DNA of 60,421 nucleotides, filler included, from Dugesia japonica (GCA_001938525.1; 4 parts of 4 records of this genome joined end to end with filler, not necessarily neighbours in it), one strand, 5' to 3'; shown: positions 11,191 through 60,421, numbered from the whole stretch's first letter. The notes: generated from the letters alone by a model not told the origin. Numbers and translations: made by a program.

Positions 11191-11305
11191 TTAATTTCCG
11201 AAAACTCCGGTAATATTTATTTTGTCAAGTATTTTCCGTATTATTTATTTTAATTAATTATTTAGTGTCTCATTGTTTTCACTTGATTTATGTTTCCATA
11301 CATTA

Positions 11306-38954: not shown

Positions 38955-41900
38955 TATATAAAAATTTACTAAAATAATAATAATTGGAGCAAATTATTTT
39001 TGATCTTATAAAACGAGAAATTTGACTTTTTTGACTTTAACAGTATTTTGACTTTGTTTTATTTAAACAATTATCACCACTTAGTGTTAAGATTTAAGAA
39101 AATTGAGTTTGATAAATGAAAATTATATATCAATTATTTGTTCACAATATATTAGATATTACGACTATATAATTTTTGTTTTTTTGCCAATGATATTGAA
39201 TGAAAGTCTTTATTAAAAAAAATTGAATGTATTTAGTAATTTAATAATCAAAAAAATTCAATTTCTTTCTCAAAAAATTAAATCAGTTCTCATTATTTAA
39301 TTTATAAAAATTTAATTGTTGTTGTTTTTATAGTTAGGGATAGATTGATTTGATTTTTTTGGGGCTTTCTTGAATTTTTGATCAAATCCTTGACGATATT
39401 GATTTGATAAATTTTTAAATAAGATACTTTTATGTGGCCATAGACAATTTTGTATATTATTAACAAGTTTTAAGTGACTTTACATGTAATATACTTAATT
39501 TACAAAAAAACCCCTCGAATTTACACAATTTACTTTCCAAAACAATATTAAAACAATCGCTTTTAAAACATCATTTAAAAATTTGTTTTCCTTAAAAAAT
39601 TCATATTTAATTATTTCTCTAATCATACTCTTCTAAAAGTTAAAGCTTTTTCACTTGCCTTTTCACCAGCTTACCGTTTTCTTCGATTATCGCATATCCC
39701 CTCTCATGGATTTTCTCTACGATCTAAAACTTGTCTGCAAATCTATTCTGACTCTTATTTTCTTACTGTGAGAATGATATTTGAATTGTTTAATTTCAAA
39801 TTTATATGTGCAATTAAAATATTTATAAAATCTTTGAAATTTAAAATATTTCAAGAAAATAATTAAAATAATTATTGCCAATTTGTTTGAATATTAAAAC
39901 TTTTCTAATTAGTTTTTATTTGATATCAACTTTGTCTTAAATAAATGTTTGATGAGAATAGCATTTTTCTTGCTAATACTTACTATGAACTGTCCTTTTG
40001 TCGACATTTCCTCTCTCATCTCCTCATCTTTGTCCAATCTTTCTGTTTCCTACTGTAAGGTTATTCTTTCTATAAAAATGTATTCTATTCTAATTTTTTT
40101 ATCCAAAATGTATTTATATACAAATGTATATACACATGCATATATATAAATTAGTAATAAAACCATTTATGATATAAAATATTGTCAATGAAAATTATTG
40201 AAACAATTTAAATTTTTAAAAGAATATTAAAACTTGGCAATAACCGAAAATTGAAACTTTGTAAAGGAGAAAGAGATTAACAGAACAAGGCTGAATTTAA
40301 AATATTAATACAAAAATAAAACAGTGAATTTGGCAATCACCAATAAATTTAAAGTGTATTTCCCAGTTCTAGAGAAATAAAAAATTTGAAAAAACTTTTG
40401 TCAAATCGTTTGTCCTTGTCTGTAACTTGACACTTTTGAAGAAAGAAAGACAAGAAAGTTCAACAACAGTTAAAAAAAATACAGATCATTAGTGATTCTA
40501 AATCGGTTTGAAAGTTCTACCACAACGAACAGTAATTAATTCTTTTTGGCTAATAAAATTTTTATTATATCTTTTATGGTTAATCAGTTGTTATTTGTTT
40601 TATGTTTTTACTATCGATAAATAATTCTTGATAATAAAATTATCCACATTTTTGTAAACGTACACCACAAATGTCCTTACTAGGAAATTGTTTATTGGGC
40701 CTACAAATTCTATAAATGATCTGTAAATAAAACTAATGAATAAATTAATAATACTAGGCAAAGTAAATAAGTAGAAGTATTAATTATTAGAAAAATTATA
40801 AAATAAGTTATTTAAGGTACTCTTGTACATTACTCATACCATCAATACAACCAATGTGTTTCCAGTACACAGTTTTTGCCAGAATCAATAATATTGTCTT
40901 CGGTTTAGTGTCATTCTTAAGAAATTATACTTCTGCTATAATACCTGTCTAGTATGTAACATTGATCATCGTAACATTGATCAGATTTCTAATTGTCCGA
41001 ATTTGTTTCTCAAACCGACCGTTAGTGTTGTGATGATACAAATTTCAAGTATACTGTTAGTAAATCTTCAAATGATAATTTATTTTAAAAATCAGAACTA
41101 TTACTTTAAGACAAATTTTTATTTCATTATTAACTCAGATGACCCGCTTCACGTATGGAACCCCGCCCATTCCACCGGTAGCAGGGACCAGCATTAATAA
41201 CTTGTTGTGGGAGTTCAGCGACTTGACGGGTTCAGAAAATAAAGAGAACGTTGACCCAGTGCCCATACCAGCAAACATCGAAACGATTAATGATAATGCG
41301 AATTCATGAGGACGAATCTGTGTTTTCTTTTATTGTTATATTTAAAAAATAAATTAAGTGTAATATGTAATTAAGTCTTAACCCATTTATTTTTTTTATT
41401 TCTTCCTATGTCAGTATGTTTGATTCGTAGAGAGTAAATGAGGTTCATATTCGATAGGTGAATTTTGATTGTTGATGATTGACATCTAATAAATCTTTCT
41501 ATAATAAAATTAATGAATAATTAAACTTTAGTGAACTCTTCACTAAACCGTTCGATAGCCTCAAAAAAGAAGGTCTGATAGGATAGCGAGGACATAGAGA
41601 TGTCCTGGAACCTTTATAAGTTGGTCAAACAGAAATGGGAGGCCAAAACAGCCACCGCGAACGCCAAGGGGTAGCGTTACCAAAATAAGTGTCGTAGCTA
41701 CTGATTAGAAGCAGAGGAATCACACGCTTAGGTGCGTATTTAAAAACGGCAAGCAGAGTCCTTCGCAGATATTATCCGGTTCTTCCATGATCGTGAGAAT
41801 AAACTGGAATCAAATTTGTTGAAAATGCGAAAGCATGTTCCTCTGGAGGCTTTGATGGTGGATAAATTTACCCAAACTAGGAATTAAATACCTAAATGTT

Positions 41901-43426: not shown

Positions 43427-43974
43427 AAATTATTAAATGTCTTCTGTGAAATATTAAATCTAAAATGTTAAATGTTTTTATGTCAGTCACGAATATTAAA
43501 ATATTAAATATTATTGTCCGAATCCATATGAAAAATCTAAAATATTAAAATATTAAATGTTTTTATGTCAGTCACGAATATTAAATTTTAAATATTATTG
43601 TCCGAATCCATATGAAAAATCTAAAATCTAAAACTGTATTATTAAATATTTATATATAAAAATGAATCCATTATTCTGTGAAATTTGTAATAAAAGATTT
43701 TTACATCAAAATCATGCAAGAACTCATTTTAATTCTTTAAAACATAAACAAAAAGTTATTAAATTTAATTTTAAACAGTTACCTGGTGAAGAAACACTTG
43801 ATTTTGATCCTGAAATTAGAGATATTTTAAAAATTTATAGAGATCATGAAATAACTTATTTATTAAATAGTAAAGTTGAAATGAAATTAAATGTTGATGA
43901 AAATTATGAACCTGTCAGAGAAATTGATGTTTTTAAAAAAGAAATTAAACAAATTGTTACAAAATATTTTAAAT
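43427..43974 (+). repeat. Left TIR of the Polinton (contains a ~85-bp tandem repeat and the first 104 codons of polB)
   Basis: 43553-43974 is the reverse complement of 60000-60421 with about 3 mismatches. TAAATGTTTTTATGTCAGTCACGAATATT...CATATGAAAAATCTAAAAT occurs twice. Confidence 0.95.
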
Positions 43975-46900
43975 TTGTAAAACAAATAAATGTAAGTATG
44001 ATAGTAAAATGTAAATATTTAAAAGAAGACCGTGAAAGAGATTTAAATTCATATTCATCTAGTAAAATAATTACAATTAAANNNNNNNNNNNNNNNNNNN
44101 NNNNNNNNNNNNNNNNNNNNNNNNNNNNNNNNNNNNNNNNNNNNNNNNNNNNNNNNNNNNNNNNNNNNNNNNNNNNNNNTATTATTGATTACACTTTATA
44201 TTTAAATAAATATAAATCAAAAGCTGGTGCAACATATTACAAATTACCATTTACAAAACAAGGTGTTATTAATATTGAAAATAAAGATAATAAATGTTTT
44301 TTATATTCAATCCTAGCACATAAATATCCAGTTGTTAATCCAACACGTGTAAATAATTACATTCCACATTTAACAGAATTAAAATCAGATTTTGAATTTC
44401 CAATGAAAATAATTGATATTCCTAAATTTGAGAAATTAAATAATTATAAAATTAATGTTTTCAGTGTCACTGCTAACAAAAAACTTGAACCACTTTACAT
44501 TTCACATCATACTAGAAATCCTAAATCTGAAGAAAATAAATGTAATCTTTTAATTTATAAAAATCATTATGTTTTATGTCGAGATTTNNNNNNNNNNNNN
44601 NNNNNNNNNNNNNNNNNNNNNNNNNNNNNNNNNNNNNNNNNNNNNNNNNNNNNNNNNNNNNNNNNNNNNNNNNNNNNNNNNNNNNNNNNNNNNNNNNNNN
44701 NNNNNNNNNNNNNNNNNNNNNNNNNNNNNNNNNNNNNNNNNNNNNNNNNNNNNNNNNNNNNNNNNNNNNNNNNNNNNNNNNNNNNNNNNNNNNNNNNNNN
44801 NNNNNNNNNNNNNNNNNNNNNNNNNNNNNNNNNNNNNNNNNNNNNNNNNNNNNNNNNNNNNNNNNNNNNNNNNNNNNNNNNNNNNNNNNNNNNNNNNNNN
44901 NNTCTAATGAAATCTGAATATTATTGTTTTACAGGTGAAAATATTTATCTAGAATTCTTTAAATTTTTAGATGACACTAATAATAAATTACAAGAGATTA
45001 AAGATAATAAGTTAATAAAAAGATATACAGGAAATGAAATATTTAATAATGAATTATGTTATTATTGTAATAAAATAATCACCGACACTCCAGTTAGAGA
45101 TCATAATCATTTTACAGGTGAATTTCGAGGTTTTTCATGTAATACTTGTAATATTAATGATTAAGTGTTAAGAATTTATTTATTCCATTTTATTTTCATA
45201 ATGCATCTGGTTATGATAATCATTTATTTTTCAAAGAATTATTATTAAAATTTCAAGGTAAAGTTAAAAAAATAATTCCACATTCTTCAGAAAATTATAT
45301 TTCATTTCAATATGAAAATATTAAATTCCTAGATTCAGCTAGATTACTTCCATTTACATCTATAGAAACTATGGGTAATTTGTTAACATCTTGCAATAAA
45401 TATCCAATATTAAAATCATTCAACCTAAAACCTAAAAAAGTAATATTTTCATATGAATATGTAAAAGGTAAAAATATCACAGAAGTCATTAATTTATTAA
45501 AATCTAACAGAATTCCAATGAAACAAGATTTTTTTAACACTCTAACTCAAAAAGAAATATCTGATCAAGAATATCAAGAATTTAAAAATGATTTTAAAGA
45601 TTTTCAAAATATGTGGAATTATCTTCTGTATTATATGAAATTAGATGTGTTAATTTTATCTGATTTCCTTGAAAATTTTAGAGTTTCATGTTTAAATAAT
45701 ATTTTAAAATTAGATCCTTGTTATTCATATTCTGTACCAGGATATTCATGGGAAACTGGAATGTTAAATGCAAATGTTAAATTAAAATATGCTAAATCTG
45801 AAACTTATGATATGTTCTTAACAATTGAATCTGGAATTAGAGGTGGATTTTCAGGTGTACTAGGTGAACGTCAAGTCTTTTCAAATAATAGTAAATTTAT
45901 TAAATATATTGATGAAAATTCATTATATGCTAGTTGCATGACAAAATCACTTCCAACAGGTGAACTTGTTAATTGTGAAGATTTAACATATCAAACTGCA
46001 ACTGAAAATATTAATTTTATTTATGAAGTTGACCTTGAATATCCAAAAGAATTACATGATAAAACTAAATATTTCCCATTATGTCCTGAAAGAATAAATA
46101 TTACAAATGACATGTTAAGTAATTACCAGTTAAGTTTTAATAAGAAAATATTAAATGATAACATTAAACTAACATTAAATCAATTCGATAAAAAAAATTA
46201 TATAGTTCTTGGATCAACTTTAGAACTTTATTTAAAACTTGGAATGAAACTTATAAAAATTCTTAAGAAAATTCAAATGAAAACATCTACATGGTTTAAA
46301 GATCATGTTCATAGATTAATTACCCTAAGAAAAGAATCTAAAATAATTAAAGATGTTTTCGGTGATTATATTTATAAATTAATGTTAAATGCTTTCTATG
46401 GAAAAACACTAGAAAATATTAGAAATCGTTGTAATATTGAAATTTTTGATACTGACAAAGCATATCAAAGATTTGCATTTAAAGTTAATTTTAAATCATC
46501 TAAAATTTTCACTTTAAATGATTCAAATGAAGCCACAGTTGCTGCAATTAATATGATAAAGAATAAATTAAAATATAATAAATTTCCATATATTGGATTC
46601 ACAATTCTAGAATATGCTAAAGAAGTAATGTATGATTTTATTTATAATCAAATGCAACCTTTAATATCCCAAGATAACTATAAAATTCATTATACTGACA
46701 GTGTTACATTTGACACTCCAATATTACTAAGAAAAGATAATAAAATAATAATTAAAAAGATATCTGAGATCTGTAATAATTATATAAAAAACATTTATGA
46801 TGACAAATATTATTCTTATCCTGAAAATTATGAAATTTGGACTAAAAGTGGATTCATTAAATTAAAAAAAGTAATTAAAAATAAAACAAATAAAAAGATT

Positions 46901-47773
46901 TATAGAATAAGAACTAAATTAGGAATTGTTGATGTAACAGAAGATCATTCATTATTAAATNNNNNNNNNNNNNNNNNNNNNNNNNNNNNNNNNNNNNNTG
47001 AAACTAAATTATTACACAATAAATTTAAAACATTAATATCTTTAAATAATAAATTTACATGTGACATTTTAAATAAAACAATTCAAGATAAAATATCTTT
47101 ATCTAAAGCTTATTATTTAGGAACATCTTTAGGAATGAATTTAATTGATACAGAAGATTTTAAAATTCAAGAAGTAAAATCAGAAATTGAAACTAATCTA
47201 CAAACCGTAAGATTTTTAAGAGAAAATCTAGAAGATGTATATGATATTGAAACTGAAGATGGAACATTTAATTGTGGATTTCCATTGATAATAAAAAATA
47301 CCGATTGTATCTTTGTTGAAATAAAACATAAAGATAATCTTTTAAAATTAGAAAGTTTACTTGGTGATAATTTATTTCAAATGAAAGATGAAAAACCTAA
47401 TTGTGAAATATTACAAGGTAATTTTATAAAATCAAAATCTTATGCTTATTCTTACACTGAAACCCATAAAGCAGGTTTCGATTCTAGAAATAAAGGTGTT
47501 AAGAAAAATAATAAATTATTAATGGATGATTTTGATTTAATATTAAAAGATTCAAATAAAATATTTTATGGGACAAATTATACTTTAAAATCAGATTGTC
47601 ATGAAATTGAATTAATAAGTCAAAAGAAAATTGTATTAATTGCATTTGATGATAAAAGAATCATTGAAGATAATGCAATTATAACATGGCCACATGGAAA
47701 TCAATATCACTGTGAAAAATGCGGTATTTATCATTTTAGATTAGATTTAATAAATAAATGCCTAAATTGTTAA
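43662..47773 (+). CDS. polB: Protein-primed family B DNA polymerase with N-terminal C2H2 finger, terminal-protein region and endonuclease VII domain. Frameshift near 45160; contains an intein
   Basis: CEICNK..H..H finger; DNKCFLYSILA; VRDHNHFTGEFRGFSCNTCN (Endo VII); FHNASGYDNH and FLDS in the downstream frame before ATG 45371; IRGG; DENSLY (motif A); KLMLNAFYGK (motif B); YTD|TDC (motif C); KSY; KGV; FDDKR. Confidence 0.95.
46700..47299 (+). mobile_element. Mini-intein (~200 aa) in PolB motif C
   Basis: Block A SVTFDTPILL, block B DVTEDHSLL (TxxH), block F VYDIET, block G IIKN followed by +1 Thr. Removing it restores HYTD-TDCIFV. It contains a 38-N gap and no intact LAGLIDADG motifs. Confidence 0.93.
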
Positions 47774-47789
47774 ATAATAATATTAATAA

Positions 47790-48326
47790 ATGAGTGATAT
47801 AACTGAAGAAGAATTAGAAAGAATAGTTAATTCTAAAAAATGTAAATCAGTTAAGATCAATGGTAAAAATTATTATATTTCTAAAAAGGTTAAAGATGAA
47901 GTTAAATCCCGAAAATCCCAGTGGGACCCTAAAGAAGGTGGATTTGCATTTTTAGCTGCAATACCTTGGGTAATTGGCGCTTTAGCAAGTTCAGCTGGAG
48001 TTGCATCTGGAATTGCAGGTACAGTTGCAAGTTCTAGAGATGCTATTAAAAAGAAAAAAGAATCAGAATTAATTGATATACAGAAACAAAATGAAATCCA
48101 TAAAGGCAAAGAACTTATAAAAAAATCTACTCCAGTTCCAACACCAACAACAGGATCTGGTATTTTTTTAAATCCATATCAAGGTTCAGCAATTCATAAA
48201 TATTTAAAAAATATAATTCCAAATTCAGATTTAAAACTATTAACTAAAAATTTTAAAGGTGGCATTGAAATTAGTAAAAATGGAAATGACATNTATTTAA
48301 ATCCTTATAAAAAGGATGAATTGTGA
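47790..48326 (+). CDS. pX-like core/membrane-active protein
   Basis: GGFAFLAAIPWVIGALASSAGVASGIAG resembles the adenoviral pX/Polinton hydrophobic segment. It has possible adenain sites (EGG|F, GSG|I, KGG|I) and a repeated LNPY. Confidence 0.7.
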   Translation: MSDITEEELERIVNSKKCKSVKINGKNYYISKKVKDEVKSRKSQWDPKEGGFAFLAAIPWVIGALASSAGVASGIAGTVASSRDAIKKKKESELIDIQKQNEIHKGKELIKKSTPVPTPTTGSGIFLNPYQGSAIHKYLKNIIPNSDLKLLTKNFKGGIEISKNGNDXYLNPYKKDEL

Positions 48327-49275
48327 AGAAGTACATGAAAGAATTAAATTGTTAAAATCACTAGTTGAATCTCAAAAGAAATATAGTAATTTTTATTGTC
48401 CAGAAATAAAAGATGAATCTTTAATAGAATCAATAAAAGAACCAATAAAAGAACCAATAATAGAAGAAGAACCTATAAAAGAACCAATAATAGAACCAAT
48501 AATAGCACGTAAAAAATCACCTAGAAAACTTACATCAAAACAAAAAATAATACAGTTGTTAAAAGATAAAATTAAAAATAACGAAGAAGATTTTACTGAT
48601 TTTACTACAGAAAAAGATATTCACAAATTCTTATCACAAGAAAATATAATACCATTTACAATATTTTTAAACCCCTCAGAAGAAAATTTAACACCATTAA
48701 CAACACCTATTATAGAAGAAATAACAGTTAATTCTAAAACATTTACAACAATTAAATTTCCAAATAATGATAATTTGATATATTTAGTAAAAGAAAATAA
48801 AAATAATTATTATTATTATAGATCAGAAACATTACCTTTTTGGTATAAATATAAACATGTAATTTTGGGAGATAAAAATTTAATAGATAAAGAAGATAGT
48901 ACAACAAAAGAATTTATTATGTTATATGTAACTGAACTGACAAAAATAGGATTAAAGTATGATAAAGATGAATATTGTAAATTTTTATTAACTAGAAAAC
49001 AAGGTAGACCTCCAAAAAGAACATTTATGGAAGAAATAGAAGATTCAGATACAGAATATATAGAACCAGAACCAGAAGCAAAATATGAAGAAAAATATGG
49101 TTATGCTGTTGGTCCAATAAATTTATTTGAAAAGTTAACATTATTAATTTCAGCTGTAAAATCTGGACATGATAATCTTAATGAAGATATTAAAAAAGTA
49201 TGTAAACAATTAAAATCTCAAGGTTTATTATCTAAAAAGATTTATTTAAGATATAAAATGAAATATTTTAAGTGA
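48316..49275 (+). CDS. Polinton hypothetical protein
   Basis: 319-aa ORF with EPI(K/I) repeats. The C-terminal LFEKLTLLISAVKSGHDNLNEDI..L resembles a motif common in Mavericks. Confidence 0.75.
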   Translation: MNCEEVHERIKLLKSLVESQKKYSNFYCPEIKDESLIESIKEPIKEPIIEEEPIKEPIIEPIIARKKSPRKLTSKQKIIQLLKDKIKNNEEDFTDFTTEKDIHKFLSQENIIPFTIFLNPSEENLTPLTTPIIEEITVNSKTFTTIKFPNNDNLIYLVKENKNNYYYYRSETLPFWYKYKHVILGDKNLIDKEDSTTKEFIMLYVTELTKIGLKYDKDEYCKFLLTRKQGRPPKRTFMEEIEDSDTEYIEPEPEAKYEEKYGYAVGPINLFEKLTLLISAVKSGHDNLNEDIKKVCKQLKSQGLLSKKIYLRYKMKYFK

Positions 49276-49313
49276 AACATGTTACATGTTACATTTTATA
49301 TTTAAAAAATAGC

Positions 49314-49986
49314 ATGTCACATCAATTCTTAGTTGTTGGAAAAGAACAAGAATTAATAATAGATTTAAAATATCCTATAGAATTAGATTCTGAATATGAA
49401 CTTGGATTGTTATGTTTTAGTGTTTACGATGTTATTTTTAATATTACAAAATTAAATAATGAATTTACAGTTGACAATAAAAATTATACACTTGAACCTG
49501 GATCTTATGAAGTTAAAGAAATTTCAGAAAAACTANNNNNNNNNNNNNNNNNNNNNNNNNNNNNNNNNNNNNNNNNNNNNNNNNNNNNNNNNNNNNNNNN
49601 NNNNNNNNNNNNNNNNNNNNNNNNNNNNNNNNNNNNNNNNNNNNNNNNNNNNNNNNNNNNNNNNNNNNNNNNNNNNNNNNNNNNNNNNNNNNNNNNNNNN
49701 NNNNNNNNNNNNNNNNNNNNNNNNNNNNNNNNNNNNNNNNNNNNNNNNNNNNNNNNNNGAAAAAGGAGAAACTGAACAAATAAATTTATTACATTCATTT
49801 CCAATTAATACGGTTGGTTTGGGATATAAAATCCTAGAAAGACCAGCTACACCAATTTATTCTAAAATTAATACTAATTACATTTCAAGATTAAAATTTA
49901 ATGTTGTAGATGAACATTTTAATACTATTGATTTTAGTCAAGAAACAATTACAGTTTTAGTTCATTTAAGAAAATATAGACATTAA
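49314..49986 (+). CDS. Minor capsid protein (penton, PX); middle gapped
   Basis: PIELDSEYELGL..FNIT..NN..LEPGSYE and LHSFP..GYKILERP..PIY..DEHFNTIDF.QETITVLVHLR. Confidence 0.85.
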
Positions 49987-50067
49987 AGAGTCATTTTTTA
50001 ATATAAAAGAGGTAGTTTTCTAGACATTCAAATCCAGAAATTATATTTAATATTTAATATTTAAGAA

Positions 50068-50500
50068 ATGAGTGAAGAAGATTATAATTTATTAGATTTT
50101 ATAAAAACATTTGGAACTCAAACAACAACAAATTTTGATTTATATTCAATTGCTGACTTTTTAGATTTACCTTTAGAGATTTATATGAAAAATGAAATAC
50201 CTGATATATTATCTGGAAATATTATATTTAATTATCAAAATTCAAATCAAAAGGGAACACATTGGACATGTTACAAGAATATATATTATTTTGATTCTTT
50301 TGGTTTAAAACCTTTAGATGAAATCGCGGAGCATACTAAAGTTTATAATGAAATTCAAGTGCAACATATTGGAACTAAAATATGTGGAATTTTATGTATT
50401 TATTTTTTTATATAAACTCGGAGAACAAAAATTTGAAAATATTATATCTGAAATGTTAGATCTTTATAATTCAATATTAGAAAAGAAGGAAGATGAATAA
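50068..50500 (+). CDS. Adenain-like cysteine protease (frameshift in T-run near 50405)
   Basis: GTHWTC, YFDSFG and QVQ....ICGILCIYF carry the catalytic H/D/Q/C. The C-terminus continues in the 50318-50500 frame. Confidence 0.9.
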
Positions 50501-52743
50501 GTTTGGAGAAAGTATTTTAAATGTAAATACAACACAATTGTTAAAAAATGTTAATGCTAAAATTAAAATGTCAGAAGCTCAAAATGAAAATAAATATGTA
50601 AATGAAACTGGTGATACAATAACATCTTTAAAAATAAAAGAAGATCCTAAAGATTTAAATGATGCTGTTAATTTAAAATATATAAAAACCCTTGAAGATA
50701 AATTACAAAAACATGAAATTCTTTTCAATAAATTATTAAAAGTTGATGGTTTTACAGTAAATAAATTATATTTAGAATCTAAAATTAATGAATTAAAAAC
50801 TTTGAATCTTGATATTTTAGATTTGAATAATAAAATTCAAAAATTAACAAAGAACTGTAATCAAGAAACATTTGACAAAATCAATTATGAGATTAAAAGA
50901 TTAAAACAAGAACTATTTCCATTTAAAAGAAGTGATTTAATTAATAAATTAAAAGAATTAGATACTCTTGATTCATCTAAAATAAAAAAAGAAATTGAGA
51001 TAATAAAAAGAAGAATTGACAAATTACATGAAGATATAGACAAGAAAACATTTGATATTTATATTATTTCTATTAATAATCTTAAAATCTATATCGGAAA
51101 ATTTAAACCTATAATTTTAAAATTAACTTCTGAAATTATAAATGTAAATGTAAACCAACATAAAATATATAGTGATAAAATTGATGCTGCATTTAAAAAA
51201 TATAAAGAAACACTTTCAGATTTAACATATAAAGATTTAAAAAGTTTAATTGATAATTATTTATCTTATGTACACAAATCTAATACTTATAAGATATTTT
51301 CAATTAATAATTATAAAAAAGATCAATATGTTGGTTATAATATTATGGATAAATATGTTAATGATTTTAATTTTATAAGAAAAAATTTAACCATTTACAT
51401 TGATGATGGATATTTTTATCTTAATAAACCTTTAGAAATTTATTTACATACAAAATTAAATGAAAAAATTAGTATAAGTATTACNNNNNNNNNNNNNNNN
51501 NNNNNNNNNNNNNNNNNNNNNNNNNNNNNNNNNNNNNNNNNNNNNNNNNNNNNNNNNNNNNNNNNNNNNNNNNNNNNNNNNNNNNNNNNNNNNNNNNNNN
51601 NNNNNNNNNNNGTAATAATTTTACCTGAAAATATTTTTATAAAGGAAATAAGTGTTAATTTATATAAATTAGAAACACTTGAAAAATTTAAAAAAGAATA
51701 TGAAATGAAAAAGTTTCATAAGTTACATAATGACAGAATTAATGGTTATTTTAAAACTTATAATTTTAAAGCATTAAGAGAAATGTTTGATAATTATTTA
51801 CCATATGTTAAAAGTAATAATCCTGATATCTTATTTTCAATTATTTCTAATAAAGAATTTAGTATTATAGATAAATATATTAATGGTTTTGATATAAAAA
51901 GTAAAAAAAAACATATTATTTTACATACAAAATTAAATTGTAAACTTATTATAACTATAGATGGAAAATGTGAGATTCAAAGATTTACATATGTCATTAA
52001 AATAAATCAAATTGCTGTTTCATTTTTATGTATTCCGTCTAAAGCCCAAAGGGACCCAGCTAAATATTTAACATTTATCGGAAAAGCAGTGAAATTTTAA
52101 TTGTTAGTAAAATAAATTTCATAGAAATAATTTTACCAGAAGTAGTTGACATGAATAATTTAAATATTAAATTAGTTGAGTTTAAAATTCCAGATGAAAC
52201 AATTAAAGAATATGAAAGAATAAAACCAGAACTTCATTTATCTCATGTTAACAGAATTAATCTTTTGATAAAAACTTATTTTGAAAATGGTGAAGAGTCA
52301 ACATTTAAAAGTATAAAAGAATTAATTGATAATTACTTACCTTATTATAATAGTAAATTAGAATTAAAATCAAAATTTTATTTTTGCATGGCTTGGATGA
52401 AAAATGATCTTCCTTGTTACGATATTGGTGAAGAAATAGAAAGAATAGATTTTAAAAGAAAAGGTAAAGTTATTAAATTAAAAAAAAACAACATTTTTGT
52501 CTATAAGAACCATTTGTTATATCTATAAAGTTTAAGACTATGATATCCACATCAATTTTTATAAATGGTTATTCTAAGAAAAGTTTTAAATATTACATTA
52601 AATATGATAATGAAATAAAAGAATATACTTCGACTACTAATAATGGTGAATTTGGGATAGAAAAATATAAATTTCGTTATGTAAATTTTATAGAATTAAC
52701 TTTACCTAAAGATATTTGCTTTGCTGCAATTTATTTCTTATAA
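50493..52743 (+). CDS. Putative fibre-like protein with three ~190-aa repeats, split by two frameshifts (~52098, ~52500)
   Basis: N-terminal YVNETGDTI..EDPKDLNDAVNLKY motif, coiled coil, then three repeats of (I/F)DNYL(S/P)Y...I(I/T)LP. The pieces join across frames. Confidence 0.65.
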
Positions 52744-52746
52744 GAA

Positions 52747-53343
52747 ATGGAGAATAAAATATATCCTAGTTTACATGATGATTATACAATCCTAGATTTA
52801 AAAAATAAACTTGCTTTATCTAGAATTAAAGATTTTGAAAATGATCTTTATTATATTAAAGATAAAATTAAACATTATAAGAAATTAGAAAAAAGATGGA
52901 ATAGAATTGATTTTGGAATTAAATATACACAAATATTAGTTTCAGCTGGAATTGGAATAGCCGGAATTGTATTAATTACTCCGGTTGGAATTGCACTAAC
53001 AACAATTGGAATACCAGTGATTACTGGTGCAATTTCAGTTTTACCTGTAATTGGAACATTAAATACTTCATTTGTTAAATCCAGAAAAGAAAGATATTCA
53101 AAATTAATANNNNNNNNNNNNNNNNNNNNNNNNNNNNNNNNNNNNNNNNNNNNNNNNNNNNNNNNNNNNNNNNNNNNNNNNNNNNNNNNNNTAATGATTT
53201 CAAAGAAAATGGTGAATGATGTACATGAATTAATATCAAATCAAAAACAAGAAAAAAGTAAATATGATGATAATAATTTAAAATTGTTACTTGAAAATCA
53301 AAATAAAGTTATTAATGAAATGAAGATGAAACTTGGAATATAA
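52747..53343 (+). CDS. Polinton/adintovirus hydrophobic membrane protein (gasderminX-like)
   Basis: IYPSL N-terminus, amphipathic helix and a long Gly-rich hydrophobic hairpin (SAGIGIAGIVLITPVGIAL..GIPVITG). Confidence 0.7.
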   Translation: MENKIYPSLHDDYTILDLKNKLALSRIKDFENDLYYIKDKIKHYKKLEKRWNRIDFGIKYTQILVSAGIGIAGIVLITPVGIALTTIGIPVITGAISVLPVIGTLNTSFVKSRKERYSKLIXXXXXXXXXXXXXXXXXXXXXXXXXXXXMISKKMVNDVHELISNQKQEKSKYDDNNLKLLLENQNKVINEMKMKLGI

Positions 53344-53387
53344 ATTTTTCTGAAACCTAACCGTATGATTAAAAAAAATATCTTAAA

Positions 53388-53669
53388 ATGACAACAGAAA
53401 ATCCTACATTTACAGTTGAAAACATTAAAACTCTTGAAGATATTTATAGACATTTTGTTTATATAGAAAAACATCCTTCATGTAAAGAAAATATTGAAAC
53501 ATATATTGAATATAGAAGAAATAATCCTATTTTTCCACATGATAACATTAAAATTCTTGAAGATATAGAAAAATATATAAATTTTAGAGATGAAAATCCC
53601 AGTGTTTCACTTAAAGAAATAAAAAATATATTAATTATAAAAAAAATGCTCGTCGTGAGCGTTTACTGA
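53388..53669 (+). CDS. Small hypothetical protein with an internal repeat
   Basis: 93-aa ORF with ENIKTLEDI / DNIKILEDI and YIEYRRNNP / YINFRDENP repeats, preceded by the shared upstream motif. Confidence 0.6.
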   Translation: MTTENPTFTVENIKTLEDIYRHFVYIEKHPSCKENIETYIEYRRNNPIFPHDNIKILEDIEKYINFRDENPSVSLKEIKNILIIKKMLVVSVY

Positions 53670-53872
53670 AATTCTGAAATTGAAACTGAAATATAAAATA
53701 TAAAAACTGGCTCACCGGTGAGCCTGAAATCTAAAATATTAAAATATTAAATATAATATAAAATTGTTACTAGAAAATCAAAATAAAGTTATTAATGACT
53801 AAAAAAGAATATAAATATCCATAAAGGAAGAAACCTGAAACCTAACTGTATGATTAAAAAAATATCTTAAAA

Positions 53873-55227
53873 ATGAATGAGATTTTTTATGAATTAAATG
53901 TACTTATAAAATTAGTTTATCAAAAAACATGTGGACATGTTGATTTTTACTATCACGAATTTTTAAAAAACTTAATATATAGTAAATTAATATTTGAATA
54001 TATGAATGATAATAATTGTGATTCTGCTGATGCTAAGGATTCTATGTATAATATAATGGATTTATATGATAAGATGTTAGAGGATTTTGATTTTAAATAT
54101 AAACCTAAAATTGAAATATTAAATTCTGAATCTGAATCTGAAAATGAATCTGAAATATTAAATGTAAAACCTAAAACATCTAAAAAACAAAATTTTAGGA
54201 CATACTCACTTTTGAAACCTGGGACTGAAATGATAAATTCTGAATCTGAAGATGAAAATGAAAATGAAATTGAAGAATATGAAAATAAAAATGAAATTAA
54301 AACTGAGACATATATAATATTAAATTCTGAACCTGAATCTGAAATAATTCCAGTGAAAATTAAAAATATAAAATTTAAAGATGATGATGATAAAATGATA
54401 AATTCTGAATATAAAATTGAAGAATATAAAATTGAAAATGAAATTTCACCTGAAATATTAGAATATGAACCTGAAATCCTAAAAACTGGCTCACTGGTGA
54501 GCCAGGAAATTGAAATATTAGAATATGAATCTGAAATTGAAAAAATAAAAATGAAATTTAAAGATGATGATGAATCTGAAACTGAATATGAACCTGAAAT
54601 CCTAAAAACTGGCTCACCGGTGAGCCAGAAAATTGAAATATTTGAATCTGAATCTAAAATAATAATACCTGAATATGTAAATAATAATCGAGAAATAATA
54701 GATTTAAATAATGATGAAACAAAAAAATTCAAGAAGGTAAAATCAAAAGATCTAAAATTTCAAATATAACATTTAAAGAAGAACTTTTAAAATCAATAAA
54801 TGTTAACAATGAAATAAGTTTAGATAAAATAGAAACTATGAAACATAAAGAATATGTTTCTTTAACCATAAATAAAAATCGTGAAGATTTAATACAAAAT
54901 ATAAAAAAATATCAAGTTTGAGTGACAAGATCTAATCAAGTAAAATTAATTTGTTATGCTCAAATAGGAACATTTCTTATGTATTTAAAACATGATTTTA
55001 CAAAAAATAATGGAAAGTTTAAAGTTGAAGATTTTTTAAATTATTTGAGTGGATATGAAATTAATTATGATAAAAGTTATATAAATAAATTAATTAGATT
55101 TGCTTTAATAGTTGATAGATGGAGTGAAATTGTTTATAGTACTTTTTCATTTAAAAAAATTACAAATAATTTAAAAGAAATTGAAGAAATCATTGGAATT
55201 GGAAATAAAATAGAACAAGATATATAA
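53873..55227 (+). CDS. Acidic repetitive hypothetical protein, probably continuing into the 54922-55227 ORF
   Basis: 298-aa ORF rich in ESE and EPEILKTGS repeats, followed closely by a 101-aa ORF that lacks an ATG start. Confidence 0.55.
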
Positions 55228-55326
55228 ATTCGTTTCGCGCGCGACCAATTTTAGAATAATAAACTAAAATATTAAATATTAAACTTAAAACTGAAACTTA
55301 AAACTTAAAACTTAAAACTTAAAATA

Positions 55327-56095
55327 TTAGAATAAATCATCTAACAATTCATCAGTTTCCTTGTTAAGATAAAAATAATTATATTTAGTTTTCCAGTGAA
55401 GATTAACTTCATAATCATAATCTAACTTGTTATTNAAAATATTTGAAAATAATTCATAATAAACATTATTTTTATCAGTTTTATTTAATTTAAAGAAGAT
55501 GTAACAATTTTAATTATTACGTATAGAATTTTTATCTAAATCATAATATGTTTGAGAAATATATATCACATTACAATTTGAATGTCTTCCACGAGTGAAA
55601 TAACTTTTTTGAACTTGTTGATTCTTTTCATTAACAACATCATCGAAAATTATAAGATTTTTCTTGTCTTTTGAAAGTTTATCACATGAAATTATTTCAT
55701 CTGGTCGATTACTTAATATTACTTATATTTATTGTTCTAGATCTTCTAGTAACTAGTTTTTTTTCAATGAAATATTGTATAACTTGATATGGAGTAGTTA
55801 GATTGTTAGGTGTTATATTTTGTTTTTCAAATATTAAACTAATTTCTTCTTTTGACAAGCCATTTTCTAATCCAAGATATAACAATTGAATTTCAAATTG
55901 ATTAATTGTTGTAGAATAGATTATTAAATTGTCATAATCTAAAAAATCAGGAATCAATAACATTTTCATTAATAAAACATTTTTACCAGAACCTGAAGAA
56001 CCAATTATTAATAATCTAAAATTATTTGGAAGGATTTTATTATTAAATTTTGTAATATTCTTATTCCAGATAAATACACTGCTTTTTTCAGACAT
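55327..56095 (-). CDS. A32/FtsK-like packaging ATPase (frameshift near 55710)
   Basis: Walker A LIIGSSGSGKN. The downstream frame gives Walker B LIIFDD, FTRGRHSN, YISQ and IRNN, ending at TAA 55329-27. Confidence 0.93.
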
Positions 56096-56103
56096 TTATT
56101 ATC

Positions 56104-57441
56104 TTAAAATATAGTTTTTTGAAGTTCACTTGTATAAAATCTACCAAGTATCTTGCCACCATTAATATTTGAAATTCTAAATGTAAATGGTTCAGTTTTA
56201 CCATTTCCAAGTATTTTGTTAATAATATAAATTTTTTTAGACCATTTTAAAGTATAACTTTTTTCAAATAACTTTTGTTGTTTAAAAATTCTAACTCTAT
56301 CACCAATTTTAAATTTTAATTTTTCAGAGAAAGATTCTACAGGTTTAATTTCAATATTTTCAGGATTAATACTTGCATTTTTAGGTGAAATATTAATACT
56401 AGAATGTTTAGTATTATTATAATTATTAACAATTTTATCTAATAATTCTTGTGTGATATCTTGATTTCCAACGGCAGTAAAATGTTTAAAAAGCTTATTT
56501 TTAAATGTTCGGTTGAATCTTTCGATTACAACAGCTTTACCTTGATTTTCAGTAGAATAGATTTCAATATTATTTTCATTACAAAAAGATTTAAAATCTT
56601 TATTATAAAATTCTAAACCATGATCAACCCATAATTTCAATGGCATTCTAAAACTTTTATCAAGAATTTTAATAAAAGCATTTTTAACTGATTTTCCAGA
56701 TTTATCATTACAGAGTTCAATGAAAGCAAATCTTGTGCAGAGATCTATAACTGTTAATATTACTATTTTCTTGTGAAATATTAAATCTGCTGACCAAATT
56801 TCATCTTTATAATTAACAATTACTTTTAATAAATGTTTAGGTTTTCTATATTCTTAATGAAGTTCGTCTGCTAAAATATAATTTTTATCACCAATTTCTG
56901 ATAATATTTGATTTAATTTAAGTTTATTCTTTTCTTCTTTAGTTTTAATTTTTAATTTATTTTTTGATAATATTGATTTTCCTATCATAATTTTACCTTT
57001 CATAGCTAATTTTACTAGTGATCTTTGAAATTTTTCAGTTCTACTTGGATCCTTAATATTATTAAGATCATGAATTAAATTAACATCAGCAATATGACGA
57101 TCGCGTATGTTTTCAGAAATATACGCAATATCATGTTTTAATGCTGCTGCATCAATTTGATTAATTGGTTCTTCACCTGGCAATGGATTATTATCAGAAT
57201 CTAATCTAATATCTAATCTTGTTCCAGGTCCAGTGTAATTATGTTTAAATAAATGACGTTCACCTGGATATTTTTCTGTTGTAATTGGTTTTAATAATTT
57301 AGATATTACTGTTGAATTTTGAAGATCACCACCTATCCTTTTATGTTCTTTGTTGATACATAAATTTAAATGTCTAGATTTATTATTTTTTAATAATATT
57401 TTACCACAATAATCACATATAAAATTCTTTTTAGAGGACAT
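56104..57441 (-). CDS. Zinc finger-parvoviral-type PLA2-retroviral-like (rve) integrase fusion with one in-frame TAA at 56856-56854
   Basis: One continuous reading frame: CDYC..H..C, NYTGPG..D.AALKHDIAY..AD (PLA2), LADELH*EYRK, IWSAD, VID..TRFA, LWVDHGLEF, VIERFNRT (DDE), FKIGDRVRI. Confidence 0.9.
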
Positions 57442-57463
57442 TTCTATTTATTATATTTAACAT

Positions 57464-58728
57464 TTAACCTTTAACATTTTCAACAATAACAACTTTACAA
57501 TTAGCAAGTTTCATTTCAACATGTTTTTCTTCAAGAATACACCAATGAANNNNNNNNNNNNNNNNNNNATCTTTATTAATTTTAATTGTAACATCAACAT
57601 TATTAACATTCATTTTATCATCATGTGCACTGATATCAAAACAGAACATTGAATATAAATTTCCAAAATCTATTAATGATAATTCAGGTTCAATAAAAAA
57701 TTATAACAACAATTTACATAATTTAAATATGGCTGTGCCATTTCATTATTTGACATGTTAAATTTACATTCATTTGCAGGATAATTTGTATTATTTAATT
57801 GAAGTTGTATTCCTTTTAAATAAGAATGTTTTGTTTCAGCAACTGCTGGTGTTATTGAAGTTTTTTGAATAAATAAATTATCATTAGTTTGAAATGAAGA
57901 ATCTGATTTTTTAAAACAAATTAATATAAATCTAGGTTGATATGCTAAACTTGCAATTTTAATTGAATAAAATCCACCAGTTTCTAAATTAGTTTTACCG
58001 GTTATTCTGTTCAAATATGAAACTTTAATTGGTTTATTTGTAGATATTCTATCCAACATTAATATTTCAGATTGAGGTAATAATCTAACTTCTGGAATAT
58101 GAAATTCTAATGTTTCTAATGAAAAACTAGCTTTTGTTGCCGCTTCACCAAAAAATAATAATTTATCTTCAATCTGACGATTACATCTAAGTTCTATACT
58201 TGTATTATATAAATATCTATTATAATTTTGCATAAATCCAAATAAATTTTTTAATGGAAAGTAACCTTCAAATTTTTCTTTTTTATATAATTTTTTCCTG
58301 GTATCATAACCAGTATTATTAAAATCTCCAGCATCAACATCTGGAATCCAACCTGATAATTGTCCATATTCTTTTTTAGTTGTTTCAGTTGAAAATATAA
58401 AATTTAACATNNNNNNNNNNNNNNNNNNNNNNNNNNNNNNNNNNNNNNNNNNNNNNNNNNNNNNNNNNNNNNNNNNNNNNNNNNNNNNNNNNNNNNNNNN
58501 NNNNNNNNNNNNNNNNNNNNNNNNNNNNNNNNCTTCTGTTATAATTTTAAATCTAAAATATAATAATGAATTGCAAATATCTAATGGATTTGTAGATTGT
58601 AAACTTTGAAATACAATATCACCAGATGCATTTAATTTGCTTAATGTTCCAGCTGAAGGTGAAATTACTAATGTATCATTTTTAATTGCTACATGTTGAA
58701 ATTGAATATTATTATCTAAATCCGTCAT
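57464..58728 (-). CDS. Major capsid protein (double jelly-roll, hexon/PY); frameshift near 57695
   Basis: PLKNLFGF..Y, LRCNR, HIPEVRL, PRFILICF, LNNTNYP, Y..Y..F, then MFCFDISAH in the next frame. Confidence 0.85.
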
Positions 58729-58744
58729 TTCTTAAAGTAATAAA

Positions 58745-58888
58745 TTAACATTTAGCTGCATAAATTCTTTTAATCTTTTTTTCAAATTCTTTTGGTACTT
58801 TGACACGAGTCATTGTTTCAGTTAATTCTTTTCCATAATATTTTGTTATTTTACTAATATCATCATATTCTAGAATTTTATTATTCAT
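58745..58888 (-). CDS. 47-aa ORF paralogous to the C-terminus of the upstream 211-aa ORF
   Basis: MNNKILEYDDISKITKYYGKELTETMTRVKVPKEFEKKIKRIYAAKC versus NKVISHEDCVKMSKEITESVLKFPETMTRIKVPEEFENKVNRVYAGK. Confidence 0.7.
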   Translation of the reverse strand: MNNKILEYDDISKITKYYGKELTETMTRVKVPKEFEKKIKRIYAAKC

Positions 58889-58904
58889 TTATTAAAGAAA
58901 TATT

Positions 58905-59540
58905 TTAAGATTTAGGTTTAGGTTTAGAATCTTTAATTACAATTGAATCTTGTTTACCTTTACCTGCATACACTCGATTAACCTTATTTTCAAATTCTTC
59001 TGGAACTTTAATACGAGTCATTGTTTCAGGAAATTTTAGTACAGATTCTGTTATTTCTTTTGACATTTTTACACAATCTTCATGTGAAATAACTTTATTT
59101 TCATTTTTAATAATTGTTAATTTTAAACCAGGATGTTCTATATGTTTTGGTTTTTGTGGTCTATTTAATTCTACTCTTAATTTATTAACTTCATCTCTTT
59201 CTTTTTGATAATCAATTTCTAATTGTTTAATTATTTCTCTATTTCTTTTATCATGATAATTCATGTCATTTATTATTATACTTTTACAATCCGATTCACA
59301 AAATTTAGTTACCATAATAGTCATTATAACTTTAAAAACTTTACATTTTTCAGTATCTTTACAATTTTCAACCTGATCATAAATTGATTTTAACATATCA
59401 TAATAATATGTTGCAGATTCCTTTGTAAGTTCATAATTTCTAAAACATTCAATTTCATCAATAGATAATTTTTTTGAACCTAAAATATTAGTAATAGTGT
59501 TGAATAAAGTATTTAATGTCATAACTTGTTTATCCTCCAT
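58905..59540 (-). CDS. Polinton hypothetical protein
   Basis: 211-aa open ORF with a coiled-coil segment. Confidence 0.7.
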   Translation of the reverse strand: MEDKQVMTLNTLFNTITNILGSKKLSIDEIECFRNYELTKESATYYYDMLKSIYDQVENCKDTEKCKVFKVIMTIMVTKFCESDCKSIIINDMNYHDKRNREIIKQLEIDYQKERDEVNKLRVELNRPQKPKHIEHPGLKLTIIKNENKVISHEDCVKMSKEITESVLKFPETMTRIKVPEEFENKVNRVYAGKGKQDSIVIKDSKPKPKS

Positions 59541-59628
59541 TTTCTATATATAAAATTTAGTTTATTACAATACGATACGATCATACAATACAATACGATA
59601 CAATATTTTAAAAATTTATCTTATAAAA
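59541..59628. promoter_or_regulatory. Divergent promoter with (TACRA)n repeats
   Basis: Lies between head-to-head ORFs. Contains TACAATACGATACGAT..TACAATACAATACGATACAAT and a TATATA near the left start. Confidence 0.45.
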
Positions 59629-59937
59629 ATGAATGATAGTACTTTTTATAATATGTTAAAAGATTATGATTTTATTAAAAATTCTGTTATAAGTTTTTGT
59701 AGAGAAAATAATGTAAATGAACAAACAATAAGAAAATATTTAAGGAAATATAATATTCCTTATAATAGAAAAAATATTTCATTATTACCAAAAAGAGATG
59801 TTACAGGAAATTTTCAATCTTTAGAGAAAAGATTTAATATAAAAATTGTAGAAAGCAAACCAAAAATATGTTATTCAAAAATGAATAATGATGAATTTAA
59901 AAATCATATTACTTTTATTACAAATTTCACAGAATAA
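59629..59937 (+). CDS. Helix-turn-helix protein
   Basis: SVISFCRENNVNEQTIRKYLRKYNIP HTH pattern in a 102-aa ORF. Confidence 0.7.
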   Translation: MNDSTFYNMLKDYDFIKNSVISFCRENNVNEQTIRKYLRKYNIPYNRKNISLLPKRDVTGNFQSLEKRFNIKIVESKPKICYSKMNNDEFKNHITFITNFTE

Positions 59938-59994
59938 TGGGAAAATCATTTTAACCATAAGCCATTTTCAGATTCTAGATTTAATATTTAAAAT

Positions 59995-60312
59995 TTAATA
60001 TTTAAAATATTTTGTAACAATTTGTTTAATTTCTTTTTTAAAAACATCAATTTCTCTGACAGGTTCATATATTTCATCAACATTTAATTTCATTTTAACT
60101 TTACTATTTAATAAATAAGTTATTTCATGATCTCTATAAATTTTTAAAATATCTCTAATTTCAGGATCAAAATCAAGTGTTTCTTCACCAGGTAACTGTT
60201 TAAAATTAAATTTAATAACTTTTTGTTTATGTTTTAAAGAATTAAAATGAGTTCTTGCATGATTTTGATGTAAAAATCTTTTATTACAAATTTCACAGAA
60301 TAATGGATTCAT
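59995..60312 (-). CDS. Truncated copy of the PolB N-terminus (C2H2 finger) inside the right TIR
   Basis: The first 104 aa are identical to PolB except for 2 residues, followed by Tyr and a stop. Confidence 0.7.
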   Translation of the reverse strand: MNPLFCEICNKRFLHQNHARTHFNSLKHKQKVIKFNFKQLPGEETLDFDPEIRDILKIYRDHEITYLLNSKVKMKLNVDEIYEPVREIDVFKKEIKQIVTKYFKY

Positions 60313-60421
60313 TTTTATATATAAATATTTAATAATACAGTTTTAGATTTTAGATTTTTCATATGGATTCGGACAATAATATTTAAAATTTAATATTCGT
60401 GACTGACATAAAAACATTTAA
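60000..60421 (-). repeat. Right TIR of the Polinton (runs off the window)
   Basis: Reverse complement of 43553-43974. Confidence 0.95.

What the first reader, a model, noticed from the sequence alone, without database searches (positions are those of the whole stretch)
43427..60421. Near-complete ~17 kb Polinton/adintovirus with full virion module and nearly identical TIRs
It encodes MCP, penton, protease, ATPase, pX-like, fibre-like, integrase and pPolB genes. The visible 422 bp of TIR differ at only about 3 positions, suggesting a young insertion or TIR homogenisation. Yet polB, protease, fibre, ATPase, integrase and MCP each carry lesions, Walker A reads GKN, and motif C reads TDC. Several frameshifts fall in homopolymer runs, so some may be sequencing errors and an intact copy may exist.
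Basis: partly seen in the sequence, partly recalled or inferred. Interest (0 to 1): 0.7.

Follow-up and report, generated by a model that had tools for sequence, protein, structure and literature searches.

The report
Giant-virus intein in planarian Polinton polymerase
This is a broken copy of a common virus-like jumping element in a flatworm genome, but its DNA polymerase gene carries a self-splicing protein insert (an intein) of a kind known from giant viruses, a type of element that animal genomes are said to lack.

Summary
The Polinton/Maverick is real: pPolB, integrase, packaging ATPase and double-jelly-roll capsid pass Pfam cut-offs, and the TIR arms match over 422 nt. It fills its own contig, so termini and target site are unseen. 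A neighbouring contig carries a 99% match to Dugesia japonica Hsp40. It is one decayed copy of a large, diverse family; the lesion count fits the TIR divergence. It groups with giant-virus PolB inteins at the same site (99/97). Seven other Polinton-type polymerases carry this allele, those read in full with a LAGLIDADG nuclease. They are scattered over the polymerase tree, and one has a 98-99% identical empty twin, which points to homing. Host DNA runs suggest both filled and empty sites. This copy lacks the motif-NX histidine, so its own splicing is doubtful. In the library searched I found no report of a splicing-domain intein in a Polinton polymerase or an animal genome. The scan noted this allele before only in Bodo saltans virus.

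The parts
43427..43974 (.). Left TIR, outer end missing (contig start). Holds an 84-nt tandem repeat x2 and the first ~105 codons of polB
   Evidence: only 43553-43974 has a visible partner
43662..45164 (+). pPolB, first piece: C2H2 zinc finger, OTU-like region (motif only; label recalled), endonuclease VII (HNH) insert; ends at a frameshift
   Evidence: PF12171 and PF02945 above cut-off; collinear with P0259-P0261 across the frame change
45161..47773 (+). pPolB, second piece: exonuclease/polymerase, motif C split by the intein
   Evidence: PF03175 E 1.4e-21; 97 relatives, best 37-45% identical
46700..47299 (+). Mini-intein, 200 aa, in frame inside motif C (pol-c / site III). Ser1, TxxH, block-F Asp, Lys-Asn end, Thr+1; endonuclease deleted; motif-NX histidine absent in this copy
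   Evidence: TIGR01445 39.8 bits vs cut-off 24.5; 609 and 1,299 hits; model pLDDT 92, all 16 PDB matches at E<=0.001 are inteins
47790..48326 (+). Small ORF with a pX/Mu-like hydrophobic stretch (label recalled)
   Evidence: no informative profile hit
48316..49275 (+). Open ORF of unknown function, 319 aa
   Evidence: no profile hit
49314..49986 (+). Probable penton (minor capsid); middle unreadable, the two readable ends are in different frames
   Evidence: weak Atlas leads only; no Pfam or PHROGs hit
50068..50500 (+). Probable adenain-type cysteine protease (His, Asp, Cys motifs recalled); frameshift in a T run after the catalytic Cys
   Evidence: no profile or PDB hit
50493..52743 (+). Fibre-like protein (label recalled) with three internal repeat units, in three pieces
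   Evidence: pieces 1 and 2 share repeats at E 1e-11 and 1e-9; piece 3 only a 10-residue match
52747..53343 (+). Membrane protein, weakly SLATT-like
   Evidence: NF033634 E 0.03, below cut-off; SLATT is labelled on Alpha adintovirus maps (PMC8502044 Fig. S2 text)
53388..55227 (+). Accessory block, mostly specific to this copy or subfamily: 93-aa ORF, acidic 298-aa ORF, and a downstream ORF with an in-frame stop
   Evidence: summed depth 300-600 over 53592-54659 against 20,000-60,000 on most core genes
55327..56095 (-). A32/FtsK-type packaging ATPase; one frameshift, one in-frame stop; Walker A reads GKN
   Evidence: PF04665 on two pieces
56104..56853 (-). Retroviral-type integrase core with D-D-E; no start codon of its own before the first catalytic Asp
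   Evidence: PF00665 E 8e-10
56854..57441 (-). Zinc-finger-like start plus parvovirus-type PLA2 domain, same frame as the integrase, separated from it by one stop
   Evidence: PF08398 E 1.6e-9; read with X at the stop, 445 codons
57464..58728 (-). Double-jelly-roll major capsid protein, one frameshift near the 3' end
   Evidence: PF21738 54.6 bits vs cut-off 27
58905..59540 (-). Open ORF of unknown function, 211 aa
59629..59937 (+). Small ORF, weak helix-turn-helix hint
   Evidence: PF13518 E 0.046, below cut-off
60000..60421 (.). Right TIR, cut by the window end; carries a truncated duplicate of the polB 5' end on the minus strand

Best explanation
A decayed genomic copy of a high-copy Polinton/Maverick family in a planarian (most likely Dugesia japonica), whose protein-primed polymerase carries a mini-intein of the pol-c allele. 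SHOWN: the insert is an intein and sits between the two catalytic aspartates of motif C; its closest non-Polinton kin are giant-virus PolB inteins at the same site; other Polinton-type polymerases carry the allele with a LAGLIDADG nuclease, patchily and beside empty twins. INFERRED: (1) the allele moved between giant-virus PolB and Polinton pPolB, most likely from giant virus to Polinton, in a shared cell; (2) it spread among Polintons by homing; (3) in this lineage the nuclease was deleted while the splicing domain stayed in frame, because the polymerase cannot work unless the intein cuts itself out (Ser1 acyl shift, Thr+1 attack, Asn cyclisation); (4) filled and empty lineages both multiplied in the host genome; (5) this copy stopped working after insertion and gathered about ten breaks.
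For: Intein: TIGR01445 above cut-off; 609 hits, nearly all PolB with an insert at the same motif; fold matches inteins in PDB and giant-virus polymerases in BFVD, best E 4e-14, TM 0.80. Site III as defined for Mimivirus and N. equitans (PMC549080); the only PDB sequence hits are NEQ068 (E 0.02). Tree: 7 Polinton + 17 giant-virus-type inteins form one 99/97 branch among 42 rows. 19 of 19 viral contigs with the signature motif encode RNA-primed-type PolB, 17 named as giant-virus MAGs. Homing: 8 intein rows among 93 pPolBs need 8 changes, 7 forced by starred branches; P0358 (filled) and P0361 (empty) are 99.5% and 98.3% identical in the exteins. Host: a joint skipping the intein to within 4 nt of each end appears in all 3 DNA runs; depth over the intein is about a quarter of the upstream flank; a contig 14% divergent also carries the intein's end. 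Hsp40 on another contig of the window is 99% identical to D. japonica; Mavericks are reported expanded in Dugesia (10.64898/2025.12.11.693146, passages).
Against: No host flank: integration is inferred from decay and from presence in runs of three studies. The host name comes from a different contig. This copy lacks the histidine found in 211 of 211 other rows, which aligns with the motif-NX histidine needed for splicing in three tested Ser1 inteins (PMC10189870), though that paper lists one natural Asn case. Monophyly of the Polinton inteins is weak (62/94), the window's branch is long, and direction of transfer is not shown. The empty-site joints have only 23-25 letters on the short side, under the tool's caution level of 30. 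Summed contig depth is no copy number. The one RNA run laid gave 342 reads, 13 of them at least 99% alike. Hosts of the other intein-bearing pPolBs are unnamed.
Confidence: 0.82

Rival explanations
1. The intein is real but dead in the whole planarian subfamily: it no longer splices, and intein-bearing copies were multiplied in trans by polymerase from intein-free copies.
For: Motif-NX histidine absent here; intein-free copies appear to coexist and could supply polymerase.
Against: 36 of 41 well-conserved positions are kept (one departure is unreadable, three are shared with 12-35 other rows; the first, seventh and last positions were fixed by how rows were picked), the frame is open, and the deletion spares the splicing domain. 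About two substitutions are expected in 600 nt from post-insertion decay alone (rate).
Confidence: 0.2
2. One reading: a young, essentially intact element whose lesions are mostly sequencing errors, with TIRs kept alike by homogenisation.
For: TIRs 99.3% alike; 3 of 7 frameshift regions in A/T runs; at the polB and MCP breaks some other contigs differ in length from this copy.
Against: Copy-specific contigs of 204-377 nt match the window with no substitution in all three runs; at the ATPase stop the window's state keeps depth 25, 8.5 and 8.4 while the family differs; the number of stops fits the TIR divergence. The frameshifts themselves were not individually confirmed.
Confidence: 0.12
3. The contig comes not from the planarian but from a protist, prey or symbiont, so the intein is not in an animal genome.
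For: No flank; GC 21% against 26-29% on the other three contigs; PolB inteins in endogenous viral elements are known from algae and a labyrinthulomycete (PMC10710043, passages).
Against: All 7 runs holding 0.31-0.54 of the words carry one organism label and come from 3 studies; the family is very abundant and diverse in the three laid; Maverick expansion is reported for Dugesia.
Confidence: 0.07
4. The intein is ancestral to this pPolB clade and was lost many times, without recent homing or transfer from giant viruses.
For: All 8 filled rows lie in one starred 58-row clade; tree counts cannot tell gain from loss.
Against: It needs many precise losses: 50 of those 58 rows are empty. Six relatives keep both LAGLIDADG motifs, as expected of an active homing cycle. 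Protein-primed and RNA-primed PolBs are far apart (established knowledge), yet their inteins share a 99/97 branch.
Confidence: 0.15

Closest known systems
Polintons/Mavericks, animal 'adintoviruses' (Starrett et al. 2021, PMC8502044; section 3.1, passages and the readable start of the supplement)
   Same: pPolB, rve integrase, FtsK-type ATPase, protease, hexon, penton, PLA2 domain, ITRs, about 17 kb
   Different: Intein in pPolB (the word does not occur in the main text); PLA2 domain in frame with the integrase rather than joined to pX; broken copy. The paper's sequence files were beyond the part of the supplement held, so they could contain unnoticed cases.
Mimivirus PolB intein, pol-c / site III allele (Ogata et al. 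2005, PMC549080; first third read), and kin in other giant viruses and N. equitans NEQ068/NEQ528
   Same: Insertion in motif C, Ser1, TxxH, terminal Asn, Thr+1, homologous splicing domain
   Different: Host is a protein-primed polymerase of a small integrating element; endonuclease deleted (200 vs 351 aa); lies in an animal assembly
PolB inteins in endogenous giant-virus elements of Klebsormidium, Tetrabaena and a labyrinthulomycete (Gallot-Lavallee et al. 2023, PMC10710043; passages)
   Same: A viral DNA-polymerase intein inside a nuclear genome
   Different: Those hosts are algae and a protist; the passages speak of viral-like polymerases and do not mention Polintons or animals
HNH and VSR nuclease inserts in Polinton pPolB (Jeong et al. 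2023, 10.1101/2023.08.22.554363; Krupovic et al. 2024, PMC11071308; passages)
   Same: Mobile nuclease domains inside pPolB; Krupovic et al. suggest they 'result from intein invasions'. This polB also has an endonuclease VII insert
   Different: Those inserts are described as nuclease domains; no splicing domain is mentioned (0 hits for intein, HINT or LAGLIDADG in Jeong et al.). Here a splicing domain sits in the active site.

Membership tests
Polinton/Maverick | Protein-primed family B polymerase | tested here: met
   PF03175 above cut-off
Polinton/Maverick | Retroviral-type (rve) integrase with D-D-E | tested here: met
   PF00665; residues read
Polinton/Maverick | Long terminal inverted repeats | tested here: met
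   422 nt visible, 3 mismatches; outer ends missing
Polinton/Maverick | AG...CT termini and 6-bp target-site duplication (recalled) | not testable with these tools
   Contig start on the left, window end on the right; no genome held
Polinton/Maverick | A32/FtsK packaging ATPase | tested here: met
   PF04665 above cut-off on one piece; gene broken
Polinton/Maverick | Double-jelly-roll major capsid protein | tested here: met
   PF21738 54.6 vs 27 bits; no PDB sequence hit
Polinton/Maverick | Penton (minor capsid protein) | tested here: inconclusive
   Weak Atlas lead; no Pfam or PHROGs hit; middle unreadable
Polinton/Maverick | Adenain-type cysteine protease | tested here: inconclusive
   Recalled motifs only; no hit
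Adintovirus (Starrett et al.) | OTU-like domain at the PolB N-terminus | tested here: inconclusive
   Region aligns with relatives at E about 1e-15; no profile names it OTU
Adintovirus (Starrett et al.) | PLA2X (PLA2 domain with C-terminal pX) of Alpha-type virion modules | tested here: inconclusive
   PLA2 domain present but followed in frame by the integrase; the pX-like ORF is separate
Adintovirus (Starrett et al.) | Alpha or Beta PolB class | not tested
   Reference sequences were not in the readable part of the supplement
Adintovirus (Starrett et al.) | Free linear genomes or virions | not testable with these tools
   Contigs cannot show ends
Class 1 intein, pol-c allele | In-frame insertion in polymerase motif C, with empty alleles in relatives | tested here: met
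Class 1 intein, pol-c allele | Ser/Cys1, block-B TxxH, block-F Asp, terminal Asn, Ser/Thr/Cys+1 | tested here: met
   Lys before the Asn is the commonest state, 116 of 212
Class 1 intein, pol-c allele | HINT fold | tested here: met
   pLDDT 92; 16 of 16 PDB matches at E<=0.001 are inteins
Class 1 intein, pol-c allele | Motif-NX histidine of Ser1 inteins | tested here: not met
   Present in 211 of 211 other rows, absent here; bears on activity of this copy, not on descent
Class 1 intein, pol-c allele | LAGLIDADG homing endonuclease (full-size inteins only) | tested here: not met
   Deleted here; two motifs in each of P0358/P0001, P0266, P0278, P0343, P0008, P0045: a mini-intein
Class 1 intein, pol-c allele | Protein splicing activity | not testable with these tools
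   Needs an assay

The most novel reading that the evidence does not exclude
A giant-virus intein allele has colonised the protein-primed polymerases of animal Polintons and still homes among them. True self-splicing inteins would then be carried, some in many copies, in the nuclear genomes of several animal groups (this planarian; probably molluscs), recording direct DNA exchange between giant viruses and Polintons in shared cells and making Polinton replication in these lineages depend on protein splicing in animal cells.
Probability: 0.5. Interest if true: 0.82.

Novelty: new variant of a known kind. Interest (0 to 1): 0.68.

Why it matters
[quoted passage not shown] An intein in a multi-copy Polinton family of a model planarian would be an exception, with the caveat that it sits in a virus-like element, not in a host gene. 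An allele shared by RNA-primed giant-virus and protein-primed Polinton polymerases is a marker of contact between the two groups, and bears on the open question of whether animal Polintons have an infectious phase. Filled and empty sites among many copies in one genome would let the homing cycle (invasion, nuclease loss, intein loss) be read directly. Ser1/Thr+1 cis-inteins are also a small, useful class for protein engineering (PMC10189870). The element itself, without the intein, is ordinary.

Tried and rejected
Whole genome: none held, so no flanks or copy count. Pfam did not see the intein; NCBIfam, homology and fold did. The search for related loci in viral contigs found no relative of P0266, of the window's pPolB or of its integrase. 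The motif scan of prokaryote genomes gave one locus, L024, which my classifier did not print; left unclassified. In metagenomes 4 loci: 3 RNA-primed-type, 1 pPolB in two ORFs (L022). The first intein tree (79 rows) finished only as a quick tree and put one giant-virus row among the Polinton inteins; the careful 42-row tree is the one cited. The pPolB tree is FastTree only; 9 proteins without motif C or too short were dropped and P0258 was not included. No RNA holder was listed by the run index; this is no evidence on expression. The motif search in the adintovirus supplement is uninformative, since the file is cut before the sequence files. The search for 'block NX' found nothing; the paper was then read by DOI. 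Rejected: TDC as a lesion; the insert as an intron (open frame, intein motifs, present in DNA) or as a Hedgehog-type HINT (Ser1, terminal Asn, Thr+1, PolB site). No complex prediction was run.
Full report
1. What the window is. The window is four contigs joined by N-spacers; the element fills the fourth from its first base, 43427, to the window end. No genome is held. The other contigs hold retrotransposon- and transposase-like ORFs (labels recalled) and a DnaJ ORF 99% identical to Dugesia japonica Hsp40; the next hits are 55-66%. I take the host to be this planarian; that is an inference across contigs. 1,026 bases of the element read N and were left so.

2. The observation. TIR arms match over 422 nt with 3 mismatches and include the first ~105 codons of polB. 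pPolB, integrase, ATPase and MCP pass Pfam cut-offs. Penton, protease, pX-like and fibre-like genes are named from position and recalled motifs; profiles did not confirm them, apart from a weak penton lead. Breaks: frameshifts in polB, protease, fibre-like gene (two), ATPase and MCP; a frame change inside the unreadable middle of the penton; a likely one in the accessory block; in-frame stops in the ATPase, between the PLA2 domain and the integrase, and in an accessory ORF.

3. Young, intact or dead? I laid 4 of the 24 listed runs on 43980-59990. In three DNA runs from three studies 65,727-67,041 contigs lie on the element, most 85-95% alike: a large, diverse family, in line with the reported Maverick expansion in Dugesia. 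One of these runs may be the source sample. Contigs of 204-377 nt match the window with no substitution at depth 8-12, so this copy or a near twin is in all three. At many listed sites nearly all depth differs from the window and a small residue remains; of 11 such sites that I picked, 7 keep a residue in all three runs and 4 have none in at least one. At the ATPase stop the residue is 25, 8.5 and 8.4, so that lesion is most likely real and private (a third letter is not excluded). At the polB and MCP breaks 2-4 contigs per run differ in length from this copy. The TIR divergence predicts 3.3 stops (0.7-9.6) and 3 are seen, so decay since insertion explains both facts. The RNA run gave 342 reads from 1.9 Gb, 218 under 90% alike: traces of related copies, little of this one.

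4. The intein. polB motif C reads HYTD, then 200 in-frame residues from Ser to Lys-Asn, then TDC. The insert passes TIGR01445. A search with it found 609 proteins among 4,584 candidates and 1,299 among 1.84 billion representatives; nearly all of the 120 listed show the same split motif. The model has pLDDT 92; all 16 PDB matches at E<=0.001 are inteins and the top eight BFVD matches are giant-virus-type polymerases (one unnamed). This is site III of Ogata et al.. Against six full-size Polinton inteins, the window's lacks the LAGLIDADG region and keeps both splicing regions. It agrees at 36 of 41 conserved positions but lacks a histidine present in 211 of 211 other rows; by alignment to the N. 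equitans intein this is the motif-NX histidine, critical in three tested Ser1 inteins, with one natural Asn case among 58. This copy may therefore not splice. DTDC occurs in 5 of 85 intein-free pPolBs with a readable motif C, so TDC is within natural variation.

5. Not a one-off. 3 of the 120 listed hits and 3 of the 97 hits are Polinton-type pPolBs with the same insert, 337-348 aa with two LAGLIDADG motifs; locus L022 is a seventh, in two ORFs. In the cluster of P0001, 5 of 15 listed members show the intein, 1 the empty site and 9 do not cover it; filled P0358 and empty P0361 are 98-99.5% identical outside it. On a 93-row pPolB tree the 8 filled rows need 8 changes, no fewer than shuffled labels (mean 7.8), all within one starred 58-row clade that includes two proteins named from Mytilus edulis. 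The window's three nearest relatives are empty. P0343 is named as from a symbiont MAG of a Ctena clam; I infer host DNA. The other hosts are unnamed. In the planarian runs a joint skipping the intein appears in 2-3 contigs per run, with short sides of 23-25 letters; summed depth over the intein bin is 9,500-11,500 against 35,000-41,000 just upstream and 300-600 on copy-specific DNA. I read this as many filled and more empty copies; it is no count.

6. Origin. From 212 inteins extracted, 79 and then 42 were used for trees. The 7 Polinton rows and 17 giant-virus-type rows sharing an FNxGxxL end form one branch at 99/97; the Polinton rows alone get 62/94. The DNA pattern for that end hit 19 viral contigs, all encoding RNA-primed-type PolB, 17 named as giant-virus MAGs. 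The allele is common and diverse in giant viruses and rare in pPolB, which favours giant virus to Polinton, but the tree does not show direction.

7. What is known. Searches: intein+polinton (18 papers), intein+adintovirus (4), intein+maverick+DNA polymerase+transposon (13), inteins+metazoa+eukaryotic viruses+DNA polymerase (8), intein+pPolB (6). I read passages of PMC12220804, PMC11071308, PMC3671162, PMC5718144, PMC5784728, PMC7765530, PMC4104785, PMC13768754, PMC10710043, PMC10189870, 10.1101/299784, 10.1101/2023.08.22.554363 and 10.64898/2025.12.11.693146; section 3.1, passages and the readable start of the supplement of PMC8502044; and the first third of PMC549080. The other listed papers I saw only as search listings. 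None of what I read describes a splicing-domain intein in a Polinton polymerase or an animal genome. Krupovic et al. guess at intein invasions from nuclease inserts; Green et al. state that metazoan genomes lack inteins; Gallot-Lavallee et al. found polymerase inteins in endogenous viral elements of algae and a protist. The library lacks most subscription papers and Repbase, and preprint supplements were closed, so prior mention is possible. The scan's own notes hold this allele only for Bodo saltans virus and nothing for this genome or for P0358.

8. Verdict. The element is a new, broken member of a known kind. The intein is a known allele in a new class of host gene and, probably, a new kingdom of host genome: a new variant of a known kind, interest 0.68. 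Shown: intein identity, site, kinship with giant-virus alleles, patchy spread in Polinton-type polymerases. Inferred: integration in the planarian, homing, direction of transfer, splicing in active ancestors.

Noticed in passing
window 56104-57441 (-): Zinc-finger-like start, PLA2 domain and integrase lie in one frame with a single stop between them, and the integrase has no start of its own: possibly a PLA2-integrase fusion. Not checked in relatives.
   Followed up: partly
window 53709, 54488, 54611: A GC-rich 16-nt palindrome occurs three times (once with one mismatch) in the low-depth accessory block of a 21% GC element.
   Followed up: no
window 53253-53318 and 53733-53798: Duplicated segment, 83% alike, each copy upstream of an accessory ORF.
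   Followed up: no
window 59995-60312 (-): The right TIR encodes a 105-residue truncated duplicate of the polB N-terminus with the zinc finger.
   Followed up: no
window 55233: A single TTTCGCGC (E2F-like site, recalled) between the converging gene blocks; the only one in the window.
   Followed up: no
window 35961-37064 (+): DnaJ/Hsp40 ORF beginning inside the J domain, 99% to D. japonica Hsp40; used to place the host.
   Followed up: yes
window 7055-8376, 12685-13625, 16837-17436, 21827-22180: Fragments resembling LTR-retrotransposon pol genes and a mariner-type transposase on the host contigs (labels recalled).
   Followed up: no
proteins P0143, P0145, P0152, P0165, P0177, P0179 and others: Related inteins ending in HN-TDG, apparently in a host protein other than PolB.
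   Followed up: no
L024:1752-1784: The intein-end pattern also hits a 248-kb contig of a bacterial MAG; possibly a misbinned giant-virus contig.
   Followed up: no
window 13574, 30766, 43327: 100-nt spacers join separate contigs; features across them are not neighbours.
   Followed up: yes
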